Source of the DNA: Amoebophrya sp. A120
Lineage: Eukaryota; Protista; Dinoflagellata
Direction: 5' to 3'
Assembly: GCA_905178155.1 (NCBI GenBank)
Contig: CAJINV010000016.1
Coordinates: 434,001 to 498,000 of the forward strand
Length of the DNA: 64,000 nucleotides
Part shown: positions 4,127 through 63,986 of the stretch, piece after piece
Position numbering within the stretch: position 1 is the first letter of the stretch
Layout: the number at the start of each line of letters is the position of its first letter
Program-made: the position numbers and the translations under genes
Notes under the pieces: generated by a model
Databases searched by the model: none
What the model was told of the DNA's origin: nothing
The model's input: the letters and a program-made list of their open reading frames with translations, nothing else

Positions 4127-5459
4127 TCACACCACGGTCATCCGACTGGCCATCCAGGTGCCGGCGCGGGAGAAGATGTCCAGCTCCCGCTGCAGGAGGA
4201 AGTTGAAGATTTCCATCAGAAACTTCGTGAACGACTCCCCGTATCCGAAGTACATAAACCCCTTGTCGCTGTAGGAGCCCACGGAGCTCCCGTTGCCGAA
4301 CAGCGTGGAGAAGGCAAAGCCCTTGCCGGAAAACGGGTAGAAATCCATCGGCGGCACGTAGGGCACCAACGCCTTAGCCAACTCCGCGGAGCCGGACAGC
4401 GGGGTGTAGGCGTAGGAGAGCGGGTTTAGCACCGGCAGCTCGGGGCCGTAGAACACGCGGGACTGCGGTTGCTGGAAAACGTAATTGGCCGGGCCGTAGA
4501 CGACGGAATCAACGACGGTGGAAAGCAGGTCATCCTCCTGCTGCCCAAAGATCGGGTGGATCACGACGGACCGCGATTCGAGCACGTCCGTGGAGTACAC
4601 GCCGAGGGAGAGCAGCATATCAAATGCAAAAGTGTCTGGGTCTGGAATGTTGCTGGGTTTGTCATGCATTTTTTGCATGACTCCTGACGTCTGTGATGGA
4701 TGCCCTAGCATCACAGATTTTTTGCGGGCTTCGTCATGCCTATTCCGCATGAGAAATTCCCTCTCGCCGGGGCAAAAACTGGACCGCTTTTGCTGTTCAT
4801 GCAATACAGATTTTTGTAGCATCCAAATGGAGCATCACAAGTTCGCATCCTTCCAGACCCAGACATTTATTTTGCAGTTGATACAGCAAGCAGAAGGTCA
4901 ACGCCGTGTACTCCTGCAGGAAGACAAACTATGCATTGCAAAAGTATCGTACTAGTAGTATGAATTGCATTACAAATTTTGGCACGAGACGAGAGAGTGG
5001 AACTTGTTATGCTGTTTTGCCTTCAGAAGAACATTTGTCATGCATATTTGCAATTAGTACGAGTACGATACTTTTGCACAGGATACAAACGGCGCCTCGA
5101 TAAAGTCAGCCAGGAGAAAGAAGGTATGCCCAGCAAAATCTTCGTCTACGTTTTGCTACGGAATGCCGCATGATAGCATTATAGTCCTCACTGTGAAGAC
5201 AGCACATTCTGTCATGCGGTGAGCAATTCTGGGGCGAGCTATGATGTGACACATCATAGCTCGCATCAGAATTTCAAGTTTTGAACATTGATTTTATCAT
5301 TTCAATTCATGCTGAAAAAATTTGTGATGCGGTCCCGTAAATGTAGAACAATTTTGCGATGCGTACGCCGGCAAGAGAAGGAGTTTGAAGAGGAAAGAAA
5401 CCGCTTCTTCTTCCTCCATCGAACCCTCGGAAGAAGCCGTGGAAGATCGCATCGAGGAT
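4127..5459 (-). CDS. hypothetical multi-exon protein interrupted by two IEs and at least one further intron; 5' end unresolved
   Basis: Removing IEs 4930-5085 and 4618-4883 (each plus one 5-bp repeat) gives a continuous frame QNVDEDFAGHTFFLLADFIEAPFVFLQEYTALTFCLLLSLGVYSTDV...RMTVV* with strong GC3 bias. Confidence 0.6.
4618..4883. mobile_element. introner element, family A (TIR TATCAAATGCAAAAnTGTCTGGGTCTGGAA)
   Basis: ~30-bp TIR; direct repeat CAGCA/CAGCA; frame restored on removal. Confidence 0.9.
4930..5085. mobile_element. introner element, family B (TIR TATnnnnTGCAAAAGTATCGTACT)
   Basis: TIR; direct repeat CAAAC/CAAAC; frame restored on removal. Confidence 0.9.
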
Positions 5460-5711
5460 TATGCAATTTACAAACACGATTTTTATTCTGAGTCCAAGTT
5501 TGTCATGCACAAAATGCACATCACAATCACTTTTGTGATGCAAAGTTTCGATTTCAAGGCATGTTTTGAGGAAGGCCGAATGATGATCATATTCTGATTC
5601 TTTTTCAGCAACTAATCTTGCATCAACCTGCAGACAGTGTACCAGTAGCAGCTACTACCTAGGAGCAGGCACTGTTCTTTATTGCAAGACAAATGCACTT
5701 CTTCTACATCT

Positions 5712-11519: not shown

Positions 11520-11790
11520 GTTTGGTATCCAGGCTAATTTTTGGCGTAGCGCCCTCCAGCAGCAGATTAATCTGTCTCAGTAGAAATAAACTGCATCTGC
11601 TTACACATACAGATTCATGCTTTCGTGTTTTCTGTTTTAGTTTCGAAGATTTTACAAACGCTACAATAAGCACTCATCGCACATTGGGAACCATATTTCC
11701 GAGAGACACACAAAGGGTAAGCGGCCAGAAAGACGTATAAGCAAAAATGTGCACTGGATACAGAGCAGGTGCCGCAGCTTCATGTTCTCG

Positions 11791-16194: not shown

Positions 16195-18876
16195 TTATCG
16201 AAATAATGACGCTCGGTCTTGACATTCATGTTGACCTTGATCTCGAACCGCTGGTGGAACCCAAGCACTCCGGACATGGACTAACGTAACATCCGAATCA
16301 AAAATCGGACCTAGCGCTCAACAACAAACGTGATTTGACAATGACATACAAATGTGTTCATTTGTTTCTTGTATGTACTAACTTAAGTACTTACTACTTA
16401 CCATCGCTGTTTTTCCGACTGCGGAAAAGACGCTTCACTGTGTTCACGAAGCCGCTTCCCGTCTGTGCTTTATTCTGTCGCAAGGTTTTTTCTTCCACAG
16501 CACCGGAGTTGAGACGCGGCACCGGCGCTGCGAAGCACGACCTCGTGGTTCCTCGCCCGTCCGACCGTCGCCGTTCCGTACTTGCTGGACGCAGGATTTC
16601 CGCCCCGGTGTCGCCTTCAACGTCATCAGCAGTGTCCGACGCCAGATGCGCACTTGACAGATTGGCGAAGTTGTAGTACCGCTTTTTCAACGTCGTCGTC
16701 GTGGATGTGGTTTCATCATTGGTATGCACATCCAGTTCGAACCGATTCGTAAGGTCCGTCATGCTTTTCTTGACGGAGCAGACTATCTGGTCCGCGTCCA
16801 CCCCGCCACGCTGTTGCGGCTGGTGAAACAGCACCGGTGTCGTGATTCTCCGCTTGATGTGCGCATGGCCGTCCTCGACGTCTCGGGAGGCAGTAGAATC
16901 CAGGCAGGATGGTGCAACGGCCGGATCGCCCGTTGCCTGGTCGCCGGAACCACGAGGTGCCGTCGCGCTGTTCTCGTGGGTTACTCCAGTGGAGAATGCG
17001 GGGGGCTGATTGGAAGCTGTCGTAGTCGACCCCAGACCGTTACACGAGCTGGTTGTGGAAGAGGAGGATGATGACTCGTTCTTCCCGTCACCTATCAACT
17101 GCAAATATGTCTGGGTCTGGAGGGTTGCAACGTGTGATGCTGTCCCTGGATTCTAAAAGCATTTGTATTGCATGACCAGCGAGGAGAGATGTCCAGTTTG
17201 TGCTACGCGGGAAGGGCGTTTTTCTCATGCGGAATAGGCAGCGCGAAGCTCTCTGAAAATATCTGATGCGAGGTGATGCATTATAGGCATCGTGGGTCAT
17301 ACAAAATATGCATGACAAACCTTGCGTTCTTCCAGATCCAGACATATTTGCAATGGATATCGTCCGCACTCGCCTTACCTTTCTCTTCCCCCGACGATTT
17401 CGCCGCCCCCGCCGTCCTACTCGCACTGTTGGAAGACCTGATCTCGGAGGTCTTTGCGTTGATCTTGGTTGTTCCTGCGGCAGTGTTATCAATACTGTCA
17501 TCCAGTGGCGCAAAAAACTCGGTGTGTGTCTGAAGAATCTTGTCCGCATAAAGATTCGTCTCCTGCTTACTTGTTGCACTCATCCGCAGCATCCGCTCCC
17601 GCCGCTCCAGCATGTCCGTAGAGGCCGTGCCGCCAGAAATCTTTTTGGTGTTTCGCACGACCTCGTCTGCCCCTTTCTCCTCGTCGATGCAATCGTGCCA
17701 GACCCCGCCACCAAAGGCGGGACCCCCTTTACTAATCACATCCGCGTTCATTTTCCCTTTCTCCGGTGACCGAGAACTAGAGTTCTGCTTTCTTCCAGGG
17801 GGCTTGATGTTGCTCGCCTGTTCTTTGATGTTGTTGGAAGAAGTGGAAGATGAGTTTGTCTGCTCTCCTTTGACGCTGCTGTGGTTCTTGCTGCTACCGA
17901 ACAGGAAATTCGAAGTTTTCGACCGCAGAGAAATTTTCGTGGTCTTCTTCGCCTCCGTGCTCGCAGTTTCCTTCAGTGCAGCCGCGGGAACAAGACGACG
18001 AGTGGCAGAAACTACAGGATCAGCTGCAATTACCGAGGTCGACGTGGAGGTCTTCGTGGTACTATCAGCACTTGCGCTTTCTCCTGCCGAGTTTTTCTGT
18101 TTGATTTTGGTTTGCTGATCTTGTTCCTGGGAAACAGACGAGGTCGAGGTGATCTTGTAGTTGTTCTTTTTCTGTCCGCTTTTGCTGTTGGTTGTAGTTG
18201 ATGCGCCTCCAGCTGCCGCGGCAATGGCCTTCAGATCCACTTGCGCCGACCCGCCCTCCTCGTCGAGTTTTATCAATTGCGCCACCGGGCCTTCCAGGAG
18301 GCTTGCAGCTAGTTGCAGCTGCTTAAGTGCTGCGGAGCGCACGAGTTCGGTAGACTTCGTGCTGTTGGCCAGCTGCGACACGGTGTTCTGCAATACCGAA
18401 AACGCGCGCGTGTAGTTCGCCCAGCCGTCCAGGACGCTGCAGAGCGCTTGAAAAGTGGCGTCCGGGATGTCGTCGCGGGAATTGTTGAGATCCGATTTCG
18501 CATACACAAGCACCTCGCGAATTATTTTTTTCGCTCTTTTCATCTCCTTCCCAGCCACGACGTCTTTTTTCAATTGCTCGATCTCGACCTCCGCGGTATC
18601 CATCCGCTTCTTCACACGGTTGACCTCGCCATCAACACGGTTGATCTCGCCATCTACACTGTCGATCCGGCTCTCCAATTTGCCCTCCACGCGGGTCACT
18701 TCACTCGCCATGTTCTGCTTCAAAATGCCGATCTCGTCTTGGAGGTGCTGCAAGTGGAAGTTGTACACCTCCTCCTGTTTTTTGGTGTCCTGCTTCAGGT
18801 TGACGAGTTGCGCTGCGAGTTCGGACAACGTCGGGGCCCCGGAAGCAGAGGATGTTGGGACGTCACTGTTCATCAA
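16195..18876 (-). CDS. hypothetical coiled-coil/low-complexity protein
   Basis: ORFs 17281-18876 and 16394-17104 join in frame across IE 17093-17359; a probable GT-AG intron 16311-16401 leads to a stop at 16195. True start may lie upstream. Confidence 0.65.
17093..17359. mobile_element. introner element, family A (opposite internal orientation to 4618)
   Basis: Family A TIRs; flanks TCACC/TCGTC diverged; frame restored by removing element +2 or +5 nt. Confidence 0.85.
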
Positions 18877-43200: not shown

Positions 43201-46200
43201 CTCCACCGCCTCCCGCGTTGTTCTCCCCCGAAGAACTGGCTCCACTACACAGCGGATTCCCAGATAAATCCAACACCCGCAGTCTCGCGCAGTTTTTCAG
43301 GGTTAAGACCGCTCTCAATTCTTCCAGCAGATTATTCGACAGGTACAGCTCGACGAGATTTTCCAAGAGTTCAAAGCCGTCCAAACTGTCGATAAAATTG
43401 TTCTCTAACGACAGCTGCGTCATCCGTTGGAAATAGTAGTTTTTCATCGGCCGGGTGAGCTGTTGTTGTTGTGAGGGCCGCTTTTCGTTCTGCTTTTTTG
43501 CACTAGATGTTGCGCTGGGTGATTTCCCCTTACTGTTCGATCGCTTCATGCTTGTCGTGCTGGTAACTGCCTTTGAAGATGTCGTTGAAGTTCCTGTTTT
43601 CTTCAAACTATTCTTCCCCCCGCTCGTATTGCTGTTCTTCCTCCCGCCCCCTGCACTACTCCTCCGAAACAACTCGCTTAAATCCGAAATTTTGTTGTTC
43701 TTCGCATCCAGCTATCAAATGCAAATATGTCCGGATCTGGAAACTTGTGATGCTAAAACGTGGATGATGGAAACAGTTCCGCATGCAACCCAGCATGACA
43801 ACTTTCTGAAACGCTTTTTCATAGGCAATCCGCATGAGAAGCTGCGTTTTTGTAGGGGCAAAAGAGGCCGCGACTTTTGTTGGTATATGCAATACAGATT
43901 TCCTAGGTATGGAAAGCTAGCATTACAAGTTCGCATCCTTCCAGACCCAGACATTTTTGCAGTTGATACCAGCCTCTGCAGCCTTGGAAACCGCTGTCGC
44001 AAACCGGCGAGTTGGGTCAGACAGTTGTTGTCCAGGTTCAAAACACCACAAACTGGAAAAGTCGGAATACCGTCCAAGCTGTGCAGTGTGTTGCCGCCAA
44101 GGTGTAAAAATTCTTTCAAATTGTGTCGGAAGGTGGAATTCAGGAACACTGATTGGAAAATCAGGGACAGTAACTTCGTGCCGAGACAAGACAAATCCAA
44201 ACTGCAGACGAAGGAAAACAAAGCCTTGAAAAACTGCTCGATCTCGGGCGTGTAGGGGTTTAGTTGTGCCATTTGCTGCTCAGGATTTGTCATGTCGTTC
44301 CCATACACCGCCCCATCTCTCGTTGCAGACAAGCTGGACGCACCGGAGATGGACCTGGTCCGGGAGAAAAAACTGGAATTTAACGCGATGGTGTTGAAAT
44401 CTGGGATTGGGAGCTGCTGCTGCTGTTGACCAGGAATAGATTTGGAGTTTTTCCTACTGCTGGACAAGGCAGCTGGCCCCAAAGAATTCCGTCTTCCCCG
44501 CTGCAGAACAGCAGAAACAGCAGTATCCGGCAGTTGTAAAATCTTTTCCACTGCCAGTCGCGCAATGCTATCCTCGTAAAGAATGACTTTGTCATCTTGC
44601 AGCGTTTGGCTCAAGCACGTCCGGATAATGTGCTCCATCCAAAATGTATCAAATGCAAAAGTGTCTGGGTCTGGAACTTGTCATGCTAAATCTCAATCAT
44701 GTAACAATCTGTGTTGCATGATTACCACAAGCTGTCCACTTTTTGACCTAGTCGAGAGGCAGTTTCTCATGCAGGATAGGCATGATAGAAGTAGAACTCT
44801 CACGGGAGAATCTGTCATGCTATGTCCTACATACCAGACCTCATGGGTCATGGAAAACCTGCATGACAAGTCTGGCCTTCTTCCAGACCCAGACATTTTT
44901 GCAGTTGATAAAATATCGAAGATTCCGGCTTTAGATCCGGGTTGACAAGAGCTGCACTGGTGAAGTAAGCCGATGCTTGTTCACCATTTAATATTTTCGA
45001 TGAAGACCGAAAACTCTTCGCTTTTTGCACGCAGAGTCGCACGAACGTGTCGAAAAGAATTGAGCTGCTGCTCGTTGCGGTTGTTGTTCCTGTTATCGCA
45101 GCAGCTGTCACGGCGGGGAGTTCTTGTCCAGTGGCGTGCTTGTGGCCTTCCTGGTGCGGAGAGTGGTGGTCTCGGTTCAAATTAGATGATGTTTTTTTCC
45201 AGCAACGCAGCCGCTGGCGGAGCAGGCTCTCCAAAGTCAATGTCGAAGAAGAGTTTGGCGAGGAAGCTGCACTGTTTCCGGCTTCTGACCGGCTCATTTT
45301 CAATTGCTTCCTCACTAAATTCTTCTGCTCTTCTGCCACCACTAACGCGTCGGTCTGGCTGTCCCGATTGATGTTCCGGACACTCGCTGTCAGAGTCGCT
45401 GAAGCTGGTGCAGCTACAGGCGCATTGGCATTGCTAAGACCGCCATCCTGCAACTGGATCATTGGGCTTTCCTCTATCGGGCTCTGTTCTCGGGAGGAAA
45501 AGGGCGTCGTGCTTGGACCATCGTTTGCATTCAGTGTGTCCAGCGGGTGCAAATGAAGAATTCTGCCGTTTTGCGAGAACAGTCTGTCATGCTCCGCTTT
45601 GAGGATCTCTTTCTCGGTACACGGTGGAAATTGGTGAAAGGAGAGGAGATCTTCCGGCCCGGAACTAGTTCTGTTCTGGTCCACGATTCCACTTGTCAAC
45701 AAATCGACCCCGCTACGGTTCAACAGTAACGCGACCACTTTGCTCGTGCTGGAAACAGGCGGGATAACTGGTGCGTAGGCATTTCCAGAAAATCCTCCAA
45801 ACAACGCGTAATTGCTAACTGAACTGCGGTTCGACATTTGACTTGTCCGGCTGATTTCCCGTAATGTTTCGGTGAAAACATCCTGCCCAGCCGTGTCCTC
45901 ATCCGCGAGTCCGTCCAGAGCGGATTGTGTCAGCTTCGACGAAGGTTTATTTTGTTTCGCAGCTGCAGCAACGAGGCCAGATGCGTGGATTGCTGGAAAG
46001 GACGCGGAATTTTTCACTTGATGATGCTGGTTCCCGTTCTTCGTTCCCAAAACGCCTGCTGTGCTACCGTACTGAAACACTGTCGCAACTTGTTCCTCGA
46101 GAAAGGTGGCGAGTAGATTGATCTCATAAGTGAACCGACACCAGTTCAAAGCGTTTAATAACCCCGTGGCACTTGTGGAGGTTAGAGATTTCGCAGAGGC

Positions 46201-49200: not shown

Positions 49201-52200
49201 CGCGGCAGATTGCGCCACGAATGAAAAAGCCGCTGGATAATTCTCGAACTTAAATCCCTCGACACCCGTTCCCGCTTCGTATCCGAATTCAATCAGAAAC
49301 TGCGGCACCACTCTCGCGGTCTCCGTGATTCGCAACAATGCACTATCCCCTGTCGACAACCGGTACGTGTTCCTCGCGCCCACCCCGCTGGTCGTTTTTG
49401 GGGAGAGTTCACTCGGCTCCGCCTCATAAACGTCCTCAAACACGTTAGAGAAGGTCTCGCTGTAAGTCGACGGAGAGTCCTGGCGGAGCCAAGTGGTCGT
49501 GGTCGGGGATGCATTTAATGCTGTCGTTTGAAAGCTGATCCTCTCGCAGAATTTCTGCGCGTTGGACTTCTCTGTTGGTGCACCACTTATGTGATGTTTC
49601 AGATCATTCACAGGAAGAACTACACCGTGCCCCTCCACTGGCTGATCCAGAACAACTCCCGTGGTACAACCAGCAACGATTTCGTTTTCACTCACGGCGT
49701 CACTGATCCCGCTGATCGCTGAGTCTTGTGTCTGTTCCCTGGGCGAGCCATTTTGCCCACTGCTGGTCCCAATGTCGCTTGGGATCACCGGAACTTCGAG
49801 AGACACCAACGGTGGTGCACCAGCGGCCGCGGCTGTGGAAAGAAGTACCGGACTGCTGGCCGTATGATGTGCTGCAGCAAGTGGCGAATTCGGTTTGCTC
49901 TCCAATGATTTCATCTCCTGCGGTTGCAGAGCGGCCAACGAGTCGCGTTTTTTCGCAATGGACACCCGTCTCTTCTCTTGCAGCTTCTCGTTTTGTGCAA
50001 TCACCATGTCTTTGCCGAATTCGATACTGCAAACCAGCACTTGCCCGTCCGGGAAGAGCAACGGCCCGACCTCAGACACGTCCTGCTTGATCACGGTTGA
50101 TTGAGCTGCTGTTGTAGAGGACGCAGCTGAGCTTGGGGAGGATCCAACAACATTATCCGTGTTGACAAGAAATTCCGTCCTATACCGTTTCAAAATCTTG
50201 AGCAACTCGCACCCGAGAAATTCCGGCTTGGTCAAAAAACTTTTCAACCTCGCTCGCTCCACGGTCTGGATGTCGGTGGTCAAGACGACGAAGTGGTCGT
50301 GTAACAGGTTGTGATCAACACAACTTTCGCTTTGCAGATCTGTCTCCTCGTCGTTAGAAGTCTGTATTTTTGATGCAGGTGAGCCGGCAGCAGAACTAGT
50401 ACAACCCGCAGCAGCCGTGCTTGAAGCGAGAAACTTCGCGATTGAGTGTTCGTTCCGGGGGACGAAAAAGAGATACTCTTGGGTCGTGGATGATTTGCCG
50501 TTCGTTCCATCTTTTTTGCTAGACGTGCTTGCAACCGCACCGCCTGCCCCACCAGCACCAACGGCCAAACTGCTATCGACGCCAAATTCCTCCTTGCATC
50601 TCGCCTCTTTAAATCTGTGCAAGATTTTCGTGACGGCTTTTATCCGCACTTTTTCGACGCCGAACTCGCTTAACTCCTCGAGTTTGAATTTCCTGGCAAA
50701 CAGTTCCACGGCAGCTAAGGCCCAAATTGGGTGAGAGCTCGTCAATTTGTGGACGTCGGTTGGGGTGACAGCGTGCTGTAATGTGTTTGATGTTGACTCG
50801 GCTTGTTCTTGAGTGGAAAGATCGGCCGTCTTGGAGGTTTTTGAGTCTCCTGTCGTAGAAGTAGAAGTGTCAACCTCTGGCTGTTTGTTCATCCCAGTAC
50901 CGGAGCTGAATTTAATACTCTGCTTCTCTTTCTCGTCTCGTTTGCTAAACGCGACCCGAGGTGATCCCAGCGAGGAGCCCTGTTGCTGTCCCGGCTCTTT
51001 CAAATTCTTCTTGGAAGAGGTAGTAGATGCGGAATTGGTTCCAGTATTTGTTTTCGGAACAGAAATCTTCAGCTCTAATGACGGCAAAGCGATCCCTTTG
51101 GACCCGTTTTTGTCTACATAAAACCCCCCGGCGCAATTGTACGGGGTGTCACGGAAAGTAGACCCGGCGTTTTTTGTCATGCTGGTGCCGTTAGATGATG
51201 ACGCAGAAGAGGACCTCCACGCGCTCCCGACAAAAACCGGAAACTCGTACCTCTCAAACAGCACATTCCCGGCGGCTTCCTCTTCGAGAGAAGAAAACGC
51301 TTTCAGTATCCTATGTAAAAACGTCCCAAGCCCAGAGTTGTCATGCAAATCTGCACGGTAAAAATGCTTCTCATGCGGAGCCCCATGAGAGGCATTTTTT
51401 AGTTGTGTTTGGCAATTTGTCATGCTCCAATCGGAGTGATGTGCTACATCTGTGATGCTTCTCAACTAGCTAAACAGGATTACACTATGGGACCGGATTT
51501 GTCATGCAGAACTCCCAAAACTTTGGGATTTGTGTTGCAGACTTCTCATCTTGACTATGGTGTGGGGATGTTTTTACACAGGATATTCAGCTGTTGCAGC
51601 AAGGGCTCGATCGTCGTTTCTCGGAACCTCGGAAAAATCGTGGAGACTATCGCTTGGAAATCCTTCTTCCGATTGTGGATGCATTTTTCCAAAACAGTTT
51701 CCGCGAAGTGGATATCCGTCAGCTCCTGGTCATGTGCTTTCATGATACCAGCATCAGAACCAATTTTATTCCGTGAACTGCCCGCGTTATTTCGGGGAGA
51801 AGGTGACGAAGAGCTTGGACCACTTGCAGATGACGATGGTAACTTTTTCGAATCTTCGCTCAGCGCATTTGATATTGGCTTCTTCTCCGCGATAATTCCC
51901 TTTTTGTAAACCTGCAACCGCAACAGTGCCTTTTCCAGCGTTTCGATCCGTTTCCCAAAAATCTCTTTCCACTTCACCTCCAGCTCCGCCTTCAAAAAAT
52001 CCTCGCAAATTTCCGTCGCTAGCCTGTCGAAAAATTTTCGTTTTCCGTGAAAGTAGATCTGCTTGTTAAAGAAGAGCGAGTTGGCCTTTTGGAAATCAAA
52101 ACCATCAACTTCAAAACCGTCGAGCGTTTCCAGTTTCTGCTTGCTATTATGCAGTATGAAGTTCTGATAGTTTTCCATCCGAACAAGTTCGCACCGACCG

Positions 52201-54424
52201 TAATCCGCATCGGAAAATTGGAGCTCACGGAGGGTACTAGAAGAAGAGGAGGATGAGCTATGCTGTTTGTTCGGCTGTTGTTGAAGATGCTGCAGCAGTC
52301 CGGACGGTGTAGAATTTCTTGTGTCGGCGAAACAAGCGAAATTGCCTGCGTCGTCAGAAGTAGATGCGCTGCCATTTATTTTCCCACCGAATGATCCGAA
52401 CAAGTCTTGTTTTATCGCTAGGAAATCCAACACTAGAGGGTTTCCAGACAAATTCAGTTTCTCCAAATTCCCGTTGGAAAAGGAACAACAGTGCTTCCGC
52501 AGTGGTCCTAGATCGTGGAGCAGCGGGTTCAAAGCGACGTTGAGATTTCGCAGATTCGGGAGAACATTCTTCAACTCCAGCCCACGCAAACTCGTCAGCT
52601 TGTTTTCCGAGAGGTTCAGTAGTTTCAATTTTGAGGAAAACTTCCTGATGTTCTTGTGATGGGACGATGATGAAGTCGCCGCGCCGGCTGCGTTCTCTAG
52701 TAGTGTTGCGACTGGCTTCAGATTCGCATAGTTTCGAATGAAAATCACGGTCGACGGCTTGTTGCTATGAAAACCTTGATGTTGTTCCCCACCCGGGTCG
52801 TCTTTTTTCTTCACTAGAACCTTATTCGGATTGTTCGAAGGCTCGTCCTCATCATTGTCGTTGTTTGATTCATTTTGGTCAAAGTCATCTGCGTTGTCAG
52901 GCCGGCTGGAGGATTTTGATTTGGACGACGAAGCGGAAGAACTGACGTGATTCTCGTTGCTAGCATCTTGATCCGCATCTTCGTGGTCGGCCCCACTACT
53001 GCTCCCGTGGTCGTGCTTATCCGAAGAACTTGTTTTCTTTCCCCCTCTAGCTCCTCTCGCTGTCACCGTACTAGCGCTGCTCTTCATGCTATTCCCTTTT
53101 TCCTCTTTCTCTTTCAGCAAAGTCGGCAACATATTGTTCCCCTCCTGCAGCTCTGTTACTTCCAGTTCATAGCTCCTCTCCGCTAACAGGAAATCCGCTA
53201 ATTCCTGGTCTGATCCGAAAAACTGGTGCACGAATTGGTCTAAAAACTGAAACGCGTTCTCGACGCTTTCCAGCAGGTTGCAGCTCAAATTCAGCTATTA
53301 CAGTGAAAAATGCCCCCAACCCCAAAGTTGCAATAATTTGTGACGCTAAAGCGACCGAAACCACTACACAACCTGTAAGGGCACCTTACCGCAATAATTT
53401 GTGATGCGAACTTTCCAAATGAAAACTTTTTGTCATGCATGGAAGGAATATGAATCTTTGTGATGCAGAGTCTAGGCGTATATAGCATTGCTGGCATGAC
53501 AAGCGCCGCTCTTGCTGGGATCTTTTGCAATACAAATTTGCGCTATAATTCACGATTGGAAATCTGTGATGCTGCTAGATGCAAGAAGGCAAATGCTTCT
53601 CTTCGAAAGGTTTGCAATACAAATGCTCGCAAGTTCGGGGGTGGGGGCATTTTTCATTGTAATATCAGCTCCTCGAGGTTTTCGCTCAGGGTGAGGAATT
53701 CGTCGGGAAGGCGGTCGATCCGATTTTCGGACAGATTTAAGCGCTTGAGGTGGGGAAGAGGGGTGTAGAGGGGTTTCACGTTTGTCGTAGTTGATGTAGT
53801 AGCTGGTAGGGACGCTGAAGCAGACGCTGGCGCTGGTCCCGCCCCCGACGTTTTCTGTTCAGTACTATCCTGCTGCTGCTCCGAGGCGAGCGCCGCATTC
53901 TTGGAGTAAAGCCATGGCTGCGGCAGGTCAGCGGGAAGACCTGATTTGCATTTTTGGCAAAAAAAATTGCAAGTAATTCCACAAAATCGAAGGGATATGC
54001 TAGAGTCACTTCTTCATCAACAACATCATTCTAGTCGCGATTTTTACGCTTCATATTTCTTTTTCTTGTCATGGGAGCCAAACATGATAAGTATAAAAAC
54101 CCTACCAGAATCCACCCGCGTCTTTTTCTCCTCAAACACACTCCCCGCGTAGTCGAATAGCATCTGCAAGTGCTCCACCCCAATGTCCTGGTTGATGAGC
54201 GATAAATCGACGAGGAAGTAGCCCAGGTACGGGGCGGACTTCCAGAACAGCAAGTTGCTGGCGATGTCGCCGAGGACCAGTTCCAGTTTCTTGATCGTTT
54301 GCGGTTTGTTGTACACATGGTCCTCGTTGATCCCGAGCGCCTGGGAGCAGAGGTACCGAAACGGGCTGTTCACGTCCAGGTTCTTGGCCCGGTCGGCCTT
54401 CGAAGACTTGGTCGCGGAGGGCAT
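40271..54424 (-). CDS. LRRC9: very large leucine-rich-repeat protein, LRRC9-like (about 4200 aa after splicing)
   Basis: Exons joined across GT-AG intron 53941-54105 and four IEs. Multiple SDS22-type LRR clusters with caps (LSGNPL, YRPYVIFHL, YRATLLTRFPNLRILD). Segments LRELQFSDADYG...NYQNFILH...NKQIYF, EAAGNVLFE and FGVEKVRIKAVTKI resemble LRRC9; recognised from memory, not by search. Confidence 0.7.
43713..43968. mobile_element. introner element, family A (inverse of the 62241 subfamily)
   Basis: TIRs; repeat CCAGC/CCAGC; restores the LRR LQRLDAKNNKISDL. Confidence 0.9.
44647..44910. mobile_element. introner element, family A (inverse of the 28493/31933 subfamily)
   Basis: TIRs; repeat AAATG/AAATA; frame restored. 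Confidence 0.88.
51307..51585. mobile_element. introner element, family D
   Basis: TIRs; repeat TTCAG/TTCAG; restores LQQLKAFSS. Confidence 0.9.
53296..53664. mobile_element. introner element, family C
   Basis: TIR TATTACA(G/A)TGAAAAATGCCCCCA; repeat TCAGC/TCAGC; restores the LRR LEELNLSCNLLES. Confidence 0.9.
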
Positions 54425-54559
54425 GGTAATATTAGCGGTGAGAATTATGCGAGGACGCTCTCTCAGCGGTCTGATTTCTTCTTTCTGGATGCACGGAGAA
54501 ACGCGAACGCCTTCGCTTTCTCTCCCAATCCCTCGCTCACTGAATCAGATCATCGAGAA

Positions 54560-56667: not shown

Positions 56668-59600
56668 CTACTTCTCCCTCGTTTTACTCCCGCCGAGCAA
56701 ATCCGACAGGCTGTCCGTTGTCGTTCGTCCGATGTCCTTCCGCCTCGGACTCAGGATCGTAAACTCGTCCGGCGGCACCGCCCGCCCCGCGTCCGAATTC
56801 TTCGTCTGGATCAAATGCAAGTTTTCCCCGCCGAGGAATATCCTGGAGACGTCCACTTTCTCCATGCTGTTCTTCGGCAATTCCTTGCGGCTCCGGCTCG
56901 GCGTCGAGCTGGTGTTTGTGGTCTGCATCATCTGCTGCTGCACTACGTTTTGCGCAATGGAAGTTGGTCTGGTGTGCACCCGTGACCCCGGCGTGGAGGA
57001 CATTTGCGGAACTCCTGCGGAAAATTTGGAGGAATTGGTCCCCGCGGAAAGCAACTGCCTCCCGGAAGTAGGATGGGACCCCATCATGATCCCGCCAGTA
57101 GAGCCCATCGGCACGATGGGCGCGTGCCCGAGGAAGTTGTTTGCGGTGTTTGGGGTAGTTGATGAAAAGTTATTATTGCCGTTCATCATCATGCCATGCG
57201 GTGCTCCATGAGACATAGATGGACCACCACTTCCGCCGTACTGGTTCATTTTCACCGGCGTTCCGGTCGACCTCCCGCGGTGGCTCAGCGCGTGTCCGGA
57301 CATCACGGGCTCGGAGTTCGTCCTTGGTAAATTCCCCCCGACAACTCCCGGCAGCAGCGGCTTCCGCAGCATCGCCCCGATCGGGCCGACGCGCGTTTTC
57401 TCCGTGACAGTGTGTTCTTTCTGGAATAAATCGATCTTGCTTTCCACCAGTTTGTCGTGGCACTGCGCCGGAATCTCTTTCAGAAAGGGCACGTGGTCGA
57501 AGGGGGTGCCCTCCCTTGCCGCATCGACAGTCGCCCGGACCATCATTTCCACGGAGTTTTTGTCCGTGTCGCCGGACTTCGATTTGCCGGTTGATTGGGA
57601 CAGCTGGTTCTTGAACTCCGCCAGGGGGTCGGTGCTGCACTCTAGCCGGATCGGCTCCCAGAGGTCCATATCCTGTGCAAAAGTATCGCACTCGTAGTAA
57701 TTGCAACCATGCATTACAAATCTTGCTCTTAAGGTAAATCTACATTTACAAATTTTCTCTCTCATGCTGAGGAAATTTGTAATGCATTTATACGAGTACG
57801 ATACTTTTGCAATACATAGTCTATCATGTTGGTGAGCATCTCCGGGCCGGCTTCGGTCCGCCACTTCGGCCTCTTTTTCCTCTGCGCCGCGGGGGATTGG
57901 GCATCCGTGGCGGCTTCGGACGGGCCGCCCGGGCTGCTGTCAGCGCCGGGGGAGGTTTGGCCTTGGGAATCATCGCCGGGGGAATCTGGATTGGATTTCG
58001 AGTTGATGATGTTGGATTTATCATGGATGGCTGCAAGTGCAGACAAGTCAAAAAATCAACATTGACATTCTCATTCTGATTCTGCATCACTCAGGAACGA
58101 AAAGACTTCAACTACTTGCTTCAATACCGTATGCATACATATCCTCATCGGCTTCGCTCGCATACGGGCTTGGACTACTCCCCCTTGAGCTCGGCCGGTC
58201 CTCCTTCTTCTTTTTTCTTTCCGCTTTCCCCACGAGAAGCTTCGCCGCGTTCATCAAGTAGCACCTTAGCCTCGTTTCCTGCAGCTCTTTATGGATTGCA
58301 AAAGTGTCTGGGTCTGGAAGATTTCTAGATTATTTGTCATGCATATTTTCCATGACCGACGATGTCTGTGATGCATGCTGTAGCATCACAGAGTTTCAGA
58401 GCGCTCTGTGATACCTCTACCGCATGAGAAACGCCCTCTCCGCGTCGCACAAACTGGAGTCCTCTTGCTGGTCATGCAATACAAATTTTTTCAGAATCCA
58501 GAGACAGCATTACAAGTTTAGAATGTTCCAGACCCAGACATTTTTGCATTTGATACTCTTCCACGACTTGCTTCGGCGTTTTCTTGATCCTTTGCTGCTT
58601 CTTCTCCGCCATGATAGCTGTATTTTTACGCAATATGAAGATATGAAGTACGGTCGGAGTAACAAGCATGTGTCATGCATAGAATATGAATCCATGGACT
58701 TGTCTCTTCATACATATTCGTCATGCGGTGAAGATGAAAAACAAAAATCACAACCAAACATACCTTGCACACTGTTTTTCTTCGCGCTAACCCGCTGGAA
58801 TTCCTTGCTTGGCACGTCGATTTTGCATTGCACAAAATGGATTCTGCATTCCTGCAGACGCGGATTGCACAAAATCGATTTTGCATTGCACAAAACCGAA
58901 TCCCGCAAAATCGATTTTGCATTGCACAAAATCGATCTTGCATTGCACAAAATCGATTTTGCACTGCACAAAATCGACCCCCGCGCCAGCCGAGACCCTG
59001 TTCCTGGCGCCTCTACGGAGCTCAGAACACGCAGACGGGGCCCATGCCGCTCCCGCGGCTTTTCAGAACTTGGGCCCGGATGTAAGTCACAAGCTCGGGC
59101 GTTTTTCATTGGTTTCTACGCTGGGCCAACGCGATGAATGTGCGGAACTTCATCGGGGCGCAAGTTCTGGAATTCGCGATCATCCCTAAGCCTGTAGCTT
59201 GCGAGCGAAACATCGATCCAAGGCGGGCAGAGGCCCGTCCTCTGCGACTTCGCCCCACGCAATCAATTTTGCAGCTTTTGCCGGGTTTTCCGGCTTTTGT
59301 GTTGGAGGTAAAATCGATTTTGCGACCACGCGCGGATTGTGTGGCCCCGCCCGAGGATCGATAGGGCATCTTCGAAAAGCGTGCCCGAAGGGTGCGCACA
59401 AAATCGAGTCTGTCCGCGGGTACTCACAAAATCGATTTTGTGAGCACCGCCCGCCGGGCGGAACATGACAACCCGGCGCCCCCAACCCGGCTGCGGGAAT
59501 CTTTCTGGCATCCCGGACGCTCCAGGGTGGGGCCTAACGCCTCAGGACACCGGCAAAAACTGCCGCGAGACCGAGTTGGCGCATTCTCGAGCTTCGAGAA

Positions 59601-62600
59601 CGCGGGCAACCGACTTCGTTTCGCGCTACTTTGCTTCGCTTGTGGACGTTAGCAGCCGCGGCACAAAGTCGATTTTTTGCGGCGTGCCTGGATTTTTTGC
59701 GGATTTTTTTCCGATTTTCTTAACATTTTTGAAGTCGGTCCAAATCAGTACTAACACATACCTTGCACACTGTTTTTCTTCGCACTAATATCCAAGAAAA
59801 AAACGTTGTTAGTGTAAATTTGTGATGCGCAACATGCAAGATGATTGCGTCTGTCATGCTTGGCATGCATCATAGGGCCCATTCAGTGGCGTTTTCCCGT
59901 GCTATCTGCGCATGACAGGTTTTTGCTTTCATGCGAGAGATATTTGTCATGCTAATCCTCCAAGAAAGTTACACCTACAAGGTTTTTTTCTTGGATAACT
60001 AACCCGCTGGAATTCCTTGCTTGGCACGTCGATTTTCGCAAAGGCGAATTCAAACACGCCCGAGAAAATTCGCAGCCCGTATTTCTCGGTGAGCCAGCCG
60101 TTAAGTTTATCTATCGTCTCCTCCATCAACTCTTCCCTCTCGTTGTTTTTCATGTAAAAATGCGTTTCCGGTATTTCCCCCAAGTGCTCCAGTGGCTCGT
60201 GCTTCTTCTTCGGCCCGGTGTGCATCTCCGGGGGCGGGGCTCCGGCGGCCGCGGGCGCTGCGGCGGGGGCCGCCTCGGCGGCCTTCGGGGAGCCGTGCGG
60301 CTGCTGGTGTTGACTTTTCGTGGGGGTGGAGGGTGCGTCCGCGTGTTTTGCCGCGGCTCCACCGGGGGTTTTGATTGCCGGGGGTGGGGACTGGGTGGAG
60401 GCACGCTGGTGTGTTGGTGTGTTTGGGAAGTAGTCCTCACGGAGTCGTTGTCAACATGAGCGTGTAAGAATGCAATTGCAAAGTCATGTTGAAGATAGAG
60501 GACAAACAAGAACCACTCTCGCAGAATATTCATGGATTATGACCTCCAGAAGATGATCTTCTTTCCTACTTAGCATAAAAAGACGAAAAAAAAATCTAAT
60601 ATACCTCCTTGCTACTCCCCGCATGATTTTGATTCCCAGCACCAGCCGTCGAGCTTTTCGACCCTCCGTGCTGTTCGCTGCCCATTATCTTCACTGATTT
60701 CTCCTTCGACCCCGGGGATTCCGGGCTTGACTCCAGCACCGGTTTTGCCTTTCTTTTCCCCTTCTTCCCGTACCGTTCTGGAGACAAGGATCGCTGCAAC
60801 GCCCGAATTCTCGTAGCTTCTTCTTCGTGGAAATAAATCTTTCCGTCGTCGTACTGCTCGGCGACGACGACGTGGGCCTCCGGGAAGAAGCCCTTCATGA
60901 GCTCTAAGTCAGGCGACAAGTGCGGTGACGTTAAAGGGTCGTACGGTGGTGGTGTTTGGAGCAGCGGTGAGTGATGTCCAGCACCTCCGTGTTTGTCCTT
61001 GGACGGGCTGGCGTGCTCTTTTGAGGATTATCCTGTGTAAAAACGTCCCCACACCATAGCTGTCATGCAAATCTGCATGCCAAAAAAATTTCTCATGCGG
61101 AGCCCCATGAGAAGCATTTTCTAGTCGTGTTTTAGAATTTCTCATGCTATAATCAGCATGATGTGGTAGATCTGTGATGCTGCTGAACTACCTACTTAAA
61201 TACGATTACAATACGAAGCCAGTTTTGTCATGCGAAACAACCAAAGCTGGCTGATTTGTATAGCAGATTTCCCATTTTGACTCTGGTGTGAGGACGTTTC
61301 TACATAGGATACGGATCCGTGTTTGTTCTCGTCGTGCTTGTCTTTATCTGCAGCTTTGTCTTTGTTTTGTTCCCCAGCTCCTGCGGCACCCTTTTCTGGG
61401 CTTTTGTCACCCGCGGCTTTGTCCTTCGATTTCTGCTTTTTTTCCTTCTTCGCCGCAGCCGCAGCTGGAGGTTCTTCCTCCTCATCTTGCTGTTTTGCTT
61501 TGTCAAAGGGCAGTGGAACTGGGCGTTTTGGACCTGATATGAATTTTTTTCGCATTGATTTGTATCCCGTGAATTGCATCGAAAGCACTGATTGTCATGC
61601 ATACATCCTTTATCAAAAATTCAACAACAGCAACTTGTAAATTGAAAATATACTCAACGGCCTCGCCGGTACCGGGTCGTAGACGACCTTATCCTTTTTC
61701 GGACTTCTCGCCCGCATTTTCGTTTTCAGCGCGATCAGCTTCTCATTGTAGTTGTACGTCACAAACTGCAGCGACTGCGGCGTCTGGTGCATCCCGGCGA
61801 AGGGTAAAATCTGTACTGCTTGGATGTCCAAAAACTCCTGCCGGTTCGGCTTCCGCAAGACGCAGAACATCCTTACTTCCCGATCTGACCACAGGCGCAC
61901 GGTTCCGTCCTTGTACTGTATTCTAAGCTATCAACTGCAAATACGTCTGTGTCTGGAAGATTTGTCATGTACATTTTGTATGATCCATGATGCCTGTAAT
62001 GCATGATCTAGCATCACAGATTTTTAGACGGCTTCCTAATGCCTACTCCGCATGAGAAATGCCCTCTCCCCGTAACACAAACTGGACTCCTGTTGCTGGC
62101 CATGCATATACAGATTTTTTTGGAATCCAACGGCAGCATTACAAGTTGCAACCTTCCAGACCCAGAAATATTTGCAATGCATATCAGCATCTCCATCGAC
62201 TCGTCATACGGGTTCACGGCCGTCGAGACCGCGTGCGGGCTATGAAATGCAAATATGCCTGGGTCTGGAAGGTTGGAACTTGTAGTGCTAGCTTTGCATA
62301 CCCAGGAAATCTGTATTGCATAACCAACAAAAGTCGCAGCCTCTTTTGTACATGCAAAGCCGCAGCTTCTCATGCGGGTTTCCTATGAGAAAGCGTTCTG
62401 AAAAGTTGTCATGCTGTGTTGCATTCGCAACTGTTGCAATCATCCACATTTTAGCATCACAAGTTTCCGCACCCAGACATATTTGCATTTGATACGGGCC
62501 CGGTTGCTGCGCCCCGGGCGGTGCTTTCAACTCCAGATTCATCTGTCGCGGTACGATCCCGCGCTTATTGGTATACGCGTGCTTGATGAACTGTTTTTGC

Positions 62601-63986
62601 GCGTGCACCATCGCCAGCCCGTTCGGCCCTTCCGGTGCGTTCGGCGGTAAGTAGACCGTGATCCCCTCCATTTCCCCGCAGTAGTGCTCGCCCTCTTTCC
62701 CCGGAACTAGGAAGTACCGGTAGGGGTTTAGGACTAACCGCGGGTTCAGATTTTGGATCATCGCCTGGTGCAACTCTTCATCAAATGCAAAAATGTCTGG
62801 GTCTGGAAGAATCTGAGACTTGTCATGCACAGTTTGCATGAGCCATGATGTCTGTGATGCATGCCCTAGCATCACAGGTTTATTGAGGGACTCATGATGC
62901 CTATTCCGCACGACAAATGCCCTGTCCGCGTAGCAAAAATTAGATTCCTTTTGCTGCTCATGCAACACAAATTTTTTAGACATCCAAATGCAGCATCACA
63001 AGTTGCATTCTTCCAGACCCAGACACTTTTGCATTTGATATTCTTCATCCGACATCAGCGCCTCCTTCACCATGCCCTGGATCAATTTCTCGAAACTCGA
63101 CTGTTTCCTTCGCAACATATTGCGAGGAAAAATCCCCCCTCCCCATAATGGACATTTGTGATGCTGGATTTGTGTACACAAATCGACTTGTCTTGCTAGA
63201 AGGCCAAGAGACGCAGTTGCGGCCTAAATTGTAGACGGTTTGTTATGCTGTTTCCCACTTGCAGTGGCCTCCTGTGATGCTGAAGATGCAAGGTTTTCCC
63301 ACGTCAGCGAGCACTACAGTCCGTGTCCGCATCTTTTGCCTTCTAGCATGACAACATGATTTGTGGAAGCAAATCATGCTACACAAGTCGCCGTTTTAGG
63401 ATGAGGAGGGGGGATCGGGATTTTTCATTTTGATACAACACCAGCGCTCGTCGCAGAAAATCCCGAACGATGGTGATCAACTCGGAACTGGATCGGAGCT
63501 TCACCAAAGCGGTCAACGTCCGTTGTAACAGCTTCGCGTTTGGATTCGCTTCGTCGTTGGCGCAAACTTCCGATTCTATATCAAATGCAGAAGTGTCTGG
63601 GTCTGGAATAAACTTGTGATGCTAAGTGGCGTAGCATGGGGAGGCCACAAGTGCTGGCTCAGCATGACAAATTTCATCTGAGCTACTAGGTGTTGCCTAT
63701 TCTGCATGACAAACTGCGTCTCCGCATGACAGAAAAGCGCGGCTCTTGGGCAACGTGCATGACAGATTTAAGAGTCATGCCAGACAAGCATGACAAACGT
63801 GCATTCTTCCAGACCCAGACATTTTTACATTTGATATTCTAGTTGCTTCTTCAACTCCTTCTTTTTCTTCGCCGCTTCCTTCTTTTTCTCCTGCTCATCG
63901 GAGGTGGTTGTGGAAACGCCAGACGATTTCATCTTCACAGTGGATTCCGTCCCAGATTGCCCCGCGGAGGAGACGTCTTCGTCCAT
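56668..63986 (-). CDS. hypothetical protein, 14 exons (9 IE introns, 4 GT-AG introns)
   Basis: One continuous frame from MDEDVSSAGQ (63986; true start may lie beyond the window) to the stop at 56668 after removing nine IEs and GT-AG introns 61534-61653, 60406-60604, 58618-59761 and 58031-58127. No domain recognised. Confidence 0.75.
57669..57818. mobile_element. introner element, family B
   Basis: TIRs; repeat GTCCA/GTCTA; frame restored. Confidence 0.88.
58290..58555. mobile_element. introner element, family A
   Basis: TIRs; repeat CTCTT/CTCTT; restores QVVEELQETR. Confidence 0.9.
58758..58824. repeat. 67-bp duplicate of an exon end plus splice donor, lacking the family E element
   Basis: Matches 59756-60036 once the 209-bp element and one ACTAA are removed, with 1 synonymous mismatch. 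Confidence 0.9.
58825..59755. repeat. GC-rich intronic insertion with a 21-bp tandem repeat and dispersed AAAATCGATTTT palindromes
   Basis: About 6 copies of GCATTGCACAAAATCGATTTT at 58825-58978; further palindromes near 59310, 59428 and 59665. Confidence 0.8.
59789..59997. mobile_element. introner element, family E (TIR TATCCAAGAAAAAAAC)
   Basis: 16-bp perfect TIR; repeat ACTAA/ACTAA; empty-site copy at 58758-58824. Confidence 0.9.
61029..61311. mobile_element. introner element, family D
   Basis: TIRs; repeat AGGAT/CGGAT; frame restored. Confidence 0.88.
61929..62183. mobile_element. introner element, family A
   Basis: TIRs; repeat TAAGC/TCAGC; frame restored (EMLRIQYK). Confidence 0.88.
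62241..62494. mobile_element. introner element, family A
   Basis: TIRs; repeat CGGGC/CGGGC; frame restored. Confidence 0.9.
62779..63040. mobile_element. introner element, family A
   Basis: TIRs (left end CAT instead of TAT); repeat CTCTT/TTCTT; frame restored. Confidence 0.88.
63118..63435. mobile_element. introner element, family C (inverse of 31557)
   Basis: TIRs; repeat CAACA/CAACA; frame restored. Confidence 0.9.
63579..63836. mobile_element. introner element, family A
   Basis: TIRs; repeat TTCTA/TTCTA; frame restored. Confidence 0.9.

What the first reader, a model, noticed from the sequence alone, without database searches (positions are those of the whole stretch)
4655..63800. A 9-nt motif YTGT[ACG]ATGC marks introns of every class, often as inverted pairs 7-8 nt apart
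Seen: family A bodies carry up to three inverted pairs (e.g. 38403 TTGTCATGC-ACATTTT-GCATGACTC, then CTGTGATGC-N8-GCATCACAG, then TGATGC-N7-GCATGAGAA). The motif also recurs in families B-E, whose bodies are otherwise dissimilar, and in GT-AG introns (GCATGACAA twice in 36997-37134; TTGTGATGC in 35630-35762; TTGTCATGC in 61534-61653; GTGTCATGC near 58670). By eye it is rare in exons. It stays conserved while neighbouring bases diverge. Inference: a candidate intron-definition code, either RNA hairpins inside the TIR stem or sites for a dimeric DNA/RNA-binding factor, possibly the specificity element of an undescribed splicing or mobility system.
Basis: partly seen in the sequence, partly recalled or inferred. 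Interest (0 to 1): 0.88.

Follow-up and report, generated by a model that had tools for sequence, protein, structure and literature searches.

The report
Helix-phased DNA motif in jumping introns
In the parasitic dinoflagellate Amoebophrya, nearly all of the jumping, transposon-like introns sampled share a 9-base motif repeated about three DNA turns apart, likely a docking site for a DNA-binding protein that helps them move, and the same motif also turns up in a minority of short ordinary introns.

Summary
The motif is real: 106 copies in the window against 3-9 expected, 94 of them in 29 introner elements (TAT...ATA ends, 5-bp target duplication) of the kind published for Amoebophrya A120. In the window plus 605 kb of related contigs, 357 of 370 elements carry it, including families with unrelated terminal repeats, and its core changes about half as fast as neighbouring bases.

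Direct pairs 30-33 bp apart dominate (15 of 19 families, 3.4 expected). Inverted pairs 6-8 nt apart are at chance level (3 of 19) and most mismatch at the middle base. The motif ignores transcription direction, and the first copy lies 31-34, 40-44 or 52-55 bp from the element end. This points to a protein reading double-stranded DNA, not to an RNA hairpin.

It does not mark every intron: 14 of 118 predicted GT-AG introns carry it (12-fold over shuffles). These are short, lack terminal repeats and lie close to elements. Elements themselves cluster 34-110 bp apart across families.

Best reading (0.55): subterminal sites for the mobilising machinery that also attract new insertions. Main rival (0.25): a host factor marking intron DNA. 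No binding protein or transposase was found.

The parts
4618..4883 (.). Family A (fam0) introner element, 3 exact motifs
4930..5085 (.). 150-nt family (fam1) element, 2 motifs, 5-bp TSD
5209..5541 (+). Four motif copies outside any detected element (5209, 5322, 5500, 5533; the last two 33 bp apart) in non-coding DNA, intron or 5' region of a minus-strand gene; no RNA was laid here
17093..17359 (.). Family A element, reverse orientation, 1 exact motif
27686..27953 (.). Family A element, 2 motifs (XPD-like DEAD_2 gene)
28033..28182 (.). fam1 element, 3 motifs (direct pair 28101/28132)
28493..28755 (.). Family A element, 2 motifs
29431..29681 (.). Family A element, 3 motifs; next element 40 nt away
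29722..29880 (.). fam1 element, 2 motifs
30134..30401 (.). Family A element, 2 motifs
31557..31877 (.). fam5 element, 4 motifs (direct pair 31600/31632)
31933..32198 (.). Family A element, 2 motifs
35630..35762 (-). Canonical GT-AG intron of UPF1 (133 nt), one exact (35719) and one 1-mismatch motif, no terminal repeat
36034..36290 (.). Family A element in UPF1, 5 motifs; RNA contigs resume at 36291
36688..36954 (.). Family A element in UPF1, 5 motifs
36997..37134 (-). Canonical GT-AG intron of UPF1 (138 nt), two exact motifs (37026, 37104), 42 nt from an element
37533..37811 (.). fam3 element, 4 motifs all in one direction
37911..38192 (.). fam3 element in the opposite orientation in the same gene, 4 motifs; both copies are absent from the RNA contig (258 nt between 37527 and 38627 equals the two short exons less one TSD each)
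38362..38626 (.).
38986..39122 (-). Canonical GT-AG intron of UPF1 with two 1-mismatch copies 31 bp apart; RNA shows only its downstream boundary
43713..43968 (.). Family A element, 3 motifs
44647..44910 (.). Family A element, 3 motifs; RNA joint skips element + 5 nt
51307..51585 (.). fam3 element, 4 motifs
53296..53664 (.). fam7 element, 5 motifs
57669..57818 (.). fam1 element, 2 motifs; RNA joint skips element + 5 nt
58290..58555 (.). Family A element, 4 motifs; RNA joint skips element + 5 nt
58618..59761 (-). 1144-nt GT-AG intron holding the 1-mismatch copy near 58670; the RNA joint has only 22 nt on its short side
59789..59997 (.). fam2 element, 4 motifs, TSD ACTAA; an empty copy of the site lies at about 58756-58825
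61029..61311 (.). fam3 element, 3 motifs; RNA joint skips element + 5 nt
61534..61653 (-). Canonical GT-AG intron (120 nt), one exact motif (61592)
61929..62183 (.). Family A element, 3 motifs
62241..62494 (.). Family A element, opposite orientation, 57 nt from the previous one, 2 motifs
62779..63040 (.). Family A element, 4 motifs
63118..63435 (.). fam4/5 element, 3 motifs
63579..63836 (.). Family A element, 6 motifs (direct run 63724/63757/63788)

Best explanation
The 9-mer is a conserved, strand-independent motif repeated about 32 bp apart inside Amoebophrya A120 introner elements, and it is likely the binding site of a double-stranded-DNA protein that the elements need in order to transpose. 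SHOWN: the elements are short TIR elements with TAT...ATA ends and a 5-bp target duplication, and RNA contigs lack exactly the element plus one duplication. They carry about one motif per 35-60 bp, as direct pairs 30-33 bp apart (three turns of B-DNA), with the first inward copy 31-34, 40-44 or 52-55 bp from the end. INFERRED: the protein (the DNA-binding part of an unidentified transposase, a partner of it, or a borrowed host architectural factor) binds these sites on one face of the helix and assembles the complex that brings the two ends together. Because one motif serves families whose terminal repeats share little beyond TAT, one machine could mobilise all of them. INFERRED, weaker: protein bound to resident motifs also draws new insertions into adjacent DNA, which would explain why elements of different families cluster 34-110 bp apart and sit next to motif-bearing canonical introns. 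On this reading splicing relies on the terminal-repeat stem, as already proposed in print, not on the motif. The origin of the motif in short canonical introns is not explained.
For: Direct pairs 30-33 bp apart in 15 of 19 family representatives (24 pairs vs 3.9 simulated; none of 5000 simulations reached it). First inward site periodic at 10.5 bp from the end (R=0.80, n=22 ends, not independent). Elements lie in both orientations to transcription (family A 44 vs 69, fam1 16 vs 18, fam3 8 vs 5) and canonical-intron copies are 7 sense vs 11 antisense. Core constrained (0.45-0.66 of neighbouring rate) while the middle base is free (1.0-1.5), as for a protein contact pattern. Core constraint is stronger on internal tree branches (0.17-0.55) than terminal ones (0.35-0.67) in 4 of 4 families. 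Density 12.2 per kb in elements vs 0.84 in predicted canonical introns and 0.046 in exons. A 1104-nt element in coding flanks has exact motifs only in its first 220 nt, and a different 323-nt TIR element in coding flanks has none, so predicted splicing does not need a dense motif array. Clustering: 138 of 384 neighbour gaps are 20-110 nt vs 82 simulated (max 106 in 300); 13 of 76 close pairs are the same family; 2 of 174 gaps are under 34 nt. Precedent: subterminal repeats bound cooperatively by a transposase in a MITE (PMC1636448, section 14).
Against: No transposase, autonomous element or binding protein was found, and PMC7789003 reports no transposase in A120. Short canonical introns carry the motif (9 of 21 at 140 nt or less vs 5 of 97 longer) with direct partners at 30-35 bp, yet show no terminal complementarity (5.7 vs 5.6; elements 20.6) or longer boundary repeats; a transposition-only signal should not persist there. 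The core stays constrained even between the closest sampled copies (0.48 at 12% divergence), so selection after insertion is not excluded. In the Emigrant precedent the repeat is half of the TIR itself; here that holds only loosely (positions 4-12 of some TIRs). Outward-pointing first sites are not significantly phased (R=0.44, n=13, p about 0.08), and the gaps between neighbouring elements show no clear 10.5-bp period (R=0.15, p about 0.18). The two motif-poor elements are predicted, not shown, to be spliced.
Confidence: 0.55

Rival explanations
1. A host DNA-binding factor marks intron DNA and helps co-transcriptional splicing (by pausing, chromatin or spliceosome recruitment) in an organism where U1 snRNA was not found. 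Short canonical introns use it, and introners survive in exons because they carry many copies.
For: 18 exact copies in 118 predicted canonical introns vs 1.4 shuffled, and 0.84 per kb vs 0.126 in long intergenic cores. Concentrated in introns of 140 nt or less (4.4 per kb), no TIR or TSD relic, BLAST similarity to elements confined to the motif region. Same spacing as in elements (9 of 180 vs 12 of 1348 positions, pairs counted twice). Only 1 of 370 elements lacks even a 1-mismatch copy. Constraint persists among the closest copies. U1 not detected in A120 (PMC7789003).
Against: 88% of predicted canonical introns lack it, including three RNA-supported ones. Motif-free and motif-poor elements sit in open coding flanks. 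Exonic and non-coding copies do not differ in motif decay (0.068 vs 0.084, n=245 vs 29, p=0.15; labels noisy). Phasing to the element end is what a transposition complex needs.
Confidence: 0.25
2. The motif binds a host chromatin or silencing factor unrelated to splicing (for example one that positions nucleosomes). Elements benefit from it, and insertions cluster in the accessible DNA beside bound sites.
For: Strand independence and helical spacing. Weak enrichment also in DNA labelled intergenic (26 vs 8.6 shuffled). Non-element copies lie nearer to elements than control positions (intron-labelled p=3e-4, intergenic-labelled p=0.002). Introners are reported to favour nucleosome linkers (PMC9860276).
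Against: Many 'intergenic' hits look like mislabelled introns or element fragments. No chromatin data were available. It does not by itself explain phasing to the element end.
Confidence: 0.08
3. The motif is a neutral relic: all families descend from one ancestral element with internal repeats, and the canonical-intron copies are remains of decayed elements.
For: Shared TAT ends; some families align in part (1/16/9, 4/5, 6/19, 2/8, X/Y). PMC7789003 reports repeats at the ends of 15% of A120 canonical introns. My sample holds only a small part of the 1954 reported families.
Against: Core substitution rate is about half that of neighbouring bases in every divergence bin and family tested. The spacing is kept across unalignable bodies. 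Exact 9-mers persist in canonical introns whose ends have background complementarity.
Confidence: 0.07
4. One reading: inverted copies fold into short RNA hairpins inside the terminal-repeat stem, or bind an RNA-binding protein, and define the intron.
For: Motif bases are predicted paired more often than other interior bases in families 0-2 (0.67-0.82 vs 0.55-0.60). One pair (91-/114+ in family A) matches at the middle base in 39 of 49 copies; 74+/91- (p=0.04) and fam1 53-/69+ (p=0.05) are borderline.
Against: Inverted pairs with a 6-8 nt gap in 3 of 19 families vs 2.2 expected. 82 of 107 copies mismatch at the middle base of the proposed stem. The 39-of-49 signal is matched by a same-direction pair (91-/215-, 137 of 180) and so reflects subfamilies. 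Families 3 and 6 carry mostly or only one direction. No strand bias; no Rfam match in the window.
Confidence: 0.05

Closest known systems
Amoebophrya A120 introner elements (Farhat et al. 2021, PMC7789003; Gozashti et al. 2025, PMC12130899)
   Same: Same organism, inverted repeats starting TAT-N7-AAA, short direct repeats at the boundaries, spliced out of genes, no known transposase.
   Different: The passages, sections and supplement text I read describe terminal repeats only. I saw no internal motif, 32-bp spacing, end phasing, cross-family clustering or motif in short canonical introns. Figures were not visible. Three families here (X, Y, Z) begin with TAT but lack the AAA.
Subterminal transposase-binding repeats of MITEs and DNA transposons (Emigrant/Lemi1, PMC1636448; that paper also names Sleeping Beauty, pogo, CACTA and hAT)
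   Same: Short repeats inside the ends, in both orientations, conserved beyond neighbouring bases, in non-coding TIR elements.
   Different: Here one motif spans at least 10 sequence groups with different TIRs, runs through the whole body with a fixed three-turn spacing, mostly does not match the TIR, and occurs in non-element introns. Binding was not tested.
IS3EU/GingerRoot DNA transposons (PMC10045372, PMC6839031)
   Same: TA..TA termini, TIRs, GC-rich target sites. PMC12130899 reports integrase-like ORFs inside TIRs in one A120 introner family.
   Different: The target duplication is 5 bp here and usually 6 bp there. No transposase was found. Subterminal repeats are not mentioned in the GingerRoot text (0 hits for 'subterminal').
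Sox/Oct composite element (PMC5314778)
   Same: Letter resemblance: TTGT, one free base, ATGC.
   Different: The octamer tail after ATGC is not conserved here, and Sox/POU factors are animal proteins (recalled). Treated as coincidence or, at most, a hint at a minor-groove bending protein.

Membership tests
A120 introner elements (PMC7789003) | Inverted repeat starting TAT, seven variable bases, three or more A | tested here: met
   Positions 1-3 are 91-99% conserved in families 0, 1 and 3 and the A-tract 93-99%; families X, Y, Z lack the A-tract
A120 introner elements (PMC7789003) | 3-5 nt direct repeat at the boundaries | tested here: met
   301 of 370 have an exact 5-bp duplication; detection required 5 bp with at most 1 mismatch. 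Also seen without that filter in the window
A120 introner elements (PMC7789003) | Removed from transcripts | tested here: met
   10 of 10 element joints in probable RNA contigs skip element + 5 nt; UPF1 pieces agree. The runs are RNA by the tool's guess
MITE (non-autonomous TIR transposon) | Short, TIRs, TSD, no coding capacity, many dispersed copies | tested here: met
   106-457 nt, 370 full copies in 670 kb; empty-site copy in the window
MITE (non-autonomous TIR transposon) | Cognate autonomous element or transposase | tested here: inconclusive
   None among long TAT...ATA candidates in about 0.5% of the genome; no whole genome held
IS3EU/GingerRoot | TA..TA termini | tested here: met
IS3EU/GingerRoot | 6-bp target duplication | tested here: not met
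   5 bp by sequence and by RNA joints
IS3EU/GingerRoot | Integrase-like DDE transposase | not testable with these tools
   No autonomous copy in hand
Subterminal transposase-binding repeats | Repeated conserved motif near both ends, in either orientation | tested here: met
Subterminal transposase-binding repeats | Motif related to the TIR binding site (as in Emigrant) | tested here: inconclusive
   A 1-mismatch copy at TIR positions 4-12 in families 1, 9 and some others, not in most
Subterminal transposase-binding repeats | Bound by the transposase and needed for transposition | not testable with these tools
   Needs binding and transposition assays
RNA-level splicing signal (branch point, intronic enhancer, conserved hairpin) | Strand-specific in the transcript | tested here: not met
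   7 sense vs 11 antisense in canonical introns; elements in both orientations
RNA-level splicing signal (branch point, intronic enhancer, conserved hairpin) | Present in most introns at a fixed distance from a splice site | tested here: not met
   14 of 118; positions 23-104 from the 5' end
RNA-level splicing signal (branch point, intronic enhancer, conserved hairpin) | Covariation in the proposed stems | tested here: not met

The most novel reading that the evidence does not exclude
Amoebophrya A120, which lacks a detectable U1 snRNA and splices tens of thousands of introns with arbitrary ends, has a DNA-encoded intron mark. One sequence-specific protein binds helically phased motif pairs in short canonical introns and in every TAT-type introner, licenses their removal, assembles their transposition, and draws new insertions next to sites it already occupies, giving a self-reinforcing system of intron gain.
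Probability: 0.2. Interest if true: 0.92.

Novelty: new variant of a known kind. Interest (0 to 1): 0.62.

Why it matters
How Amoebophrya introners move and how they are spliced are stated open questions (PMC7789003: no transposase found in A120, no U1, no family-specific signal). A motif shared across families with different terminal repeats gives a concrete bait for finding the responsible protein, and a simple feature for annotating elements. The three-turn spacing and end phasing predict the geometry of the complex. The clustering of different families 34-110 bp apart suggests that insertions attract further insertions, which would help explain massive local intron gain. If the short canonical introns use the same protein, it would be a DNA-level intron mark, which has no close precedent that I know of (recalled, not searched exhaustively).

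Tried and rejected
No whole genome was held, so genome-wide counts were replaced by the window plus 605 kb of contigs fetched with the family-A terminal repeat (150 loci held, of 161 found and about 590 estimated). That sample is biased to family A, and its strain relative to the window is unknown (no overlap).

The apparent near-neutral decay of motif and TIR in close sister copies (0.76 and 0.93) was a selection artefact. With separate columns for choosing and measuring, it disappeared, and I do not use it.

Exonic vs non-coding copies: no difference, labels noisy, inconclusive. The 91-/114+ covariation was rejected as subfamily structure. A 10.5-bp period in gaps between elements was not found.

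The search for autonomous elements up to 15 kb and for ORFs behind unpaired TIRs found nothing transposase-like by inspection; these ORFs were not scanned against Pfam. Viral collection: 0 hits for the TIR; 11 hits for a direct motif pair, isolated and about chance level by my rough estimate. Rfam: 0 matches. One 2026 raw-read RNA run laid only 37 reads and was uninformative. Earlier scan notes: none.

The gene model recovered 7 of 8 RNA-supported canonical introns in the window, missed the 1144-nt one, and made at least one false call (33982-34217 lies in continuous RNA). Intron, exon and intergenic labels in the fetched loci are therefore predictions. The Sox/Oct likeness was rejected as coincidence.
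Full report
SETTING. A UPF1 exon in the window is 100% identical to a protein labelled Amoebophrya sp. A120, and 80% to A25. All predicted genes lie on the minus strand. The repeated introns match the published A120 introner elements, whose inverted repeats start TAT, seven variable bases, AAA (PMC7789003, passages). No whole genome was held. A scan with the family-A terminal repeat gave 150 stored loci, 605 kb after merging overlaps, none overlapping the window. All cross-locus counts below cover these loci plus the window (670 kb) and are biased toward family A.

THE ELEMENTS. I found 370 full elements with TAT...ATA ends and a 5-bp target duplication, in 10 families of 4 or more copies plus small ones. 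A wider search added families X, Y and Z, whose terminal repeats share little but TAT. The window holds 29 elements. In probable RNA contigs, 10 of 10 element joints skip exactly element + 5 nt, and the UPF1 pieces agree. So the coding sequence is restored precisely, with the elements in either orientation: two family-3 copies point opposite ways in UPF1 and both are absent from the contig. Of 231 elements with classifiable flanks, 203 lie in coding exons.

CHECK OF THE OBSERVATION. The window has 106 exact copies vs 3.4-8.9 expected, 94 of them in elements. Per kb: 12.2 in full elements, 0.84 in 118 predicted canonical introns of 300 nt or less (18 copies, 1.4 shuffled), 0.16 in intergenic DNA (26 vs 8.6; 0.126 in long cores) and 0.046 in exons (12 vs 10.6). 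357 of 370 elements have an exact copy and 369 a copy within one mismatch. Only 14 of 118 canonical introns have an exact copy; at one mismatch it is 48 vs 28.9 shuffled. The core is more conserved than other interior bases in all 10 families. In 195 disjoint nearest pairs from four families, the core changes at 0.45-0.66 of the neighbouring rate in every divergence bin, like TIR positions 11-30 (0.35-0.62), while the middle base is unconstrained (1.0-1.5).

THE GRAMMAR IS DIRECT, NOT INVERTED. In the window there are 16 exact direct pairs 30-33 bp apart and 4 exact inverted pairs with a 7-8 nt gap. With one representative per family, 15 of 19 have an inner direct pair at 30-33 bp (24 pairs; simulation means 3.4 families and 3.9 pairs, never reached in 5000 runs). 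Inverted pairs with a 6-8 nt gap occur in 3 of 19 (2.2 expected, P=0.37). Several families are partly related, so the 19 are not fully independent. The first inward-pointing copy starts 31-34, 40-44 or 52-55 bp from the end (10.5-bp period, R=0.80, n=22); outward-pointing first copies are not significantly phased. A spacing of 31.5 bp is three turns of B-DNA (established knowledge).

NOT AN RNA HAIRPIN. The proposed 8-nt-loop stem matches at its variable base in 25 of 107 copies (19 expected, p=0.04), so 77% mismatch. The two end-proximal sites match in 49 of 169 (74.5 expected). The one strong signal (39 of 49) is reproduced by a same-direction pair and reflects subfamilies. Family 3 conserves 5-6 same-direction copies with 1-3% predicted motif-motif pairing, whereas the TIR stem is predicted at 0.75-0.82 in all four families folded (20 copies each). 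Orientation to transcription is mixed: family A 44 vs 69 (p=0.02, a mild bias), others balanced, canonical-intron copies 7 vs 11.

CANONICAL INTRONS. The motif-bearing minority is short (9 of 21 at 140 nt or less vs 5 of 97, p=4e-5) and close to elements (11 of 45 within 300 nt vs 3 of 73; an element within 110 nt for 7 of 14 vs 15 of 104). They show direct partners at 30-35 bp more often than at other distances, nearly always have C in the middle, and have no more terminal complementarity or boundary repeat than other canonical introns. A purely neutral relic is hard to square with exact 9-mers beside fully decayed ends (inference), although descent from unsampled families cannot be excluded. 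This is the main unexplained fact.

CLUSTERING. Neighbouring elements are too close together: 138 of 384 gaps are 20-110 nt vs 82 simulated within loci. 76 of 174 exact-ended neighbours are within 110 nt, only 2 are under 34 nt, and only 13 of the 76 are the same family. Exons between two canonical introns have a median of 273 nt (n=65). Motif copies outside elements lie nearer to elements than control positions in intron- and intergenic-labelled DNA, never within 70 nt; the 12 exonic copies show no significant effect. Nucleosome-linker preference, reported for introners (PMC9860276, passages), is an alternative cause.

MECHANISM. Shown: anatomy, spacing, phasing, strand independence, constraint, precise splicing, clustering. 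Inferred: a double-stranded-DNA protein binds the motif. Most likely (0.55) it serves transposition, as subterminal repeats do in Emigrant and other TIR elements (PMC1636448, abstract and section 14), and also biases insertion toward occupied sites. In favour: constraint is stronger on internal than terminal branches, and a 1104-nt element with motifs only in its first 220 nt and a motif-free 323-nt TIR element both sit in open coding flanks (splicing predicted only). Against: constraint persists among the closest sampled copies, exonic vs non-coding copies gave no answer, no transposase was found, and the canonical-intron copies remain. The main rival (0.25) is a host factor marking intron DNA for splicing in a lineage where U1 was not detected.

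COMPARISON AND NOVELTY. The elements are known. By their ends they resemble IS3EU/GingerRoot (TA..TA; PMC10045372 and PMC6839031, passages) but fail the 6-bp duplication test, so I do not file them there. PMC12130899 reports integrase-like ORFs within TIRs in one A120 family (passages). I found no description of the internal motif in these places: searches (listings only); PMC7789003 (abstract, passages, sections 12 and 16, supplement passages; figures not visible); PMC12130899 (passages; 12 of 14 supplement files searched for two motif spellings with 0 hits; 19 of 58 A120 table rows seen); PMC12005148 and PMC9860276 (passages). Roy et al. 2023 (Curr Biol) was seen only as a reference entry and could describe it. 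The Sox/Oct resemblance (PMC5314778, passages) is treated as coincidence.

VERDICT. A real, apparently undescribed cis-element with a clear DNA-helical grammar, in a known class of elements. New variant of a known kind; interest 0.62, rising to about 0.9 if the host-factor reading holds.

Noticed in passing
window 58756-58825 vs 59752-60033: A copy of two adjacent exon pieces without the element between them (an empty insertion site, one base different in the target) lies inside the 1144-nt GT-AG intron, followed by a 21-nt tandem array (58817-58977).
   Followed up: partly
window 7056-10477: Tandem array of a 203-nt unit, about 17 copies, 96% matches, with long open frames on the minus strand; no motif copies.
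   Followed up: no
window 19477-20739: Nested inverted repeats (arms of 35-93 nt) forming a roughly 1.3-kb foldback-like non-coding region without the motif.
   Followed up: no
window 33000-39320 (minus): UPF1, the nonsense-mediated decay helicase, carries five introner elements and four canonical introns.
   Followed up: partly
L018 504-1608: 1104-nt TAT...ATA element with intact TIRs and TSD in coding flanks; motif array at one end only, GC-rich repetitive non-coding interior; may be a deletion derivative of a longer autonomous element.
   Followed up: partly
L050 2010-2333: Different TIR element (323 nt), no motif, telomere-like repeats inside, in open coding flanks.
   Followed up: partly
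L052 570-1051: Family-A-ended 481-nt element in a coding exon whose unrelated interior carries about ten exact or near motif copies throughout.
   Followed up: partly
canonical introns, window and loci: The predicted donor consensus is GTAY and the acceptor an A/C-rich tract before CAG, with no polypyrimidine tract; the element end TAT matches positions 2-4 of the commonest donor GTAT.
   Followed up: no
window 44911-53295 (minus): Very long open frames (2205 and 579 aa) with almost no RNA contig cover in the four runs laid; leucine-rich repeats in 40271-43712.
   Followed up: no
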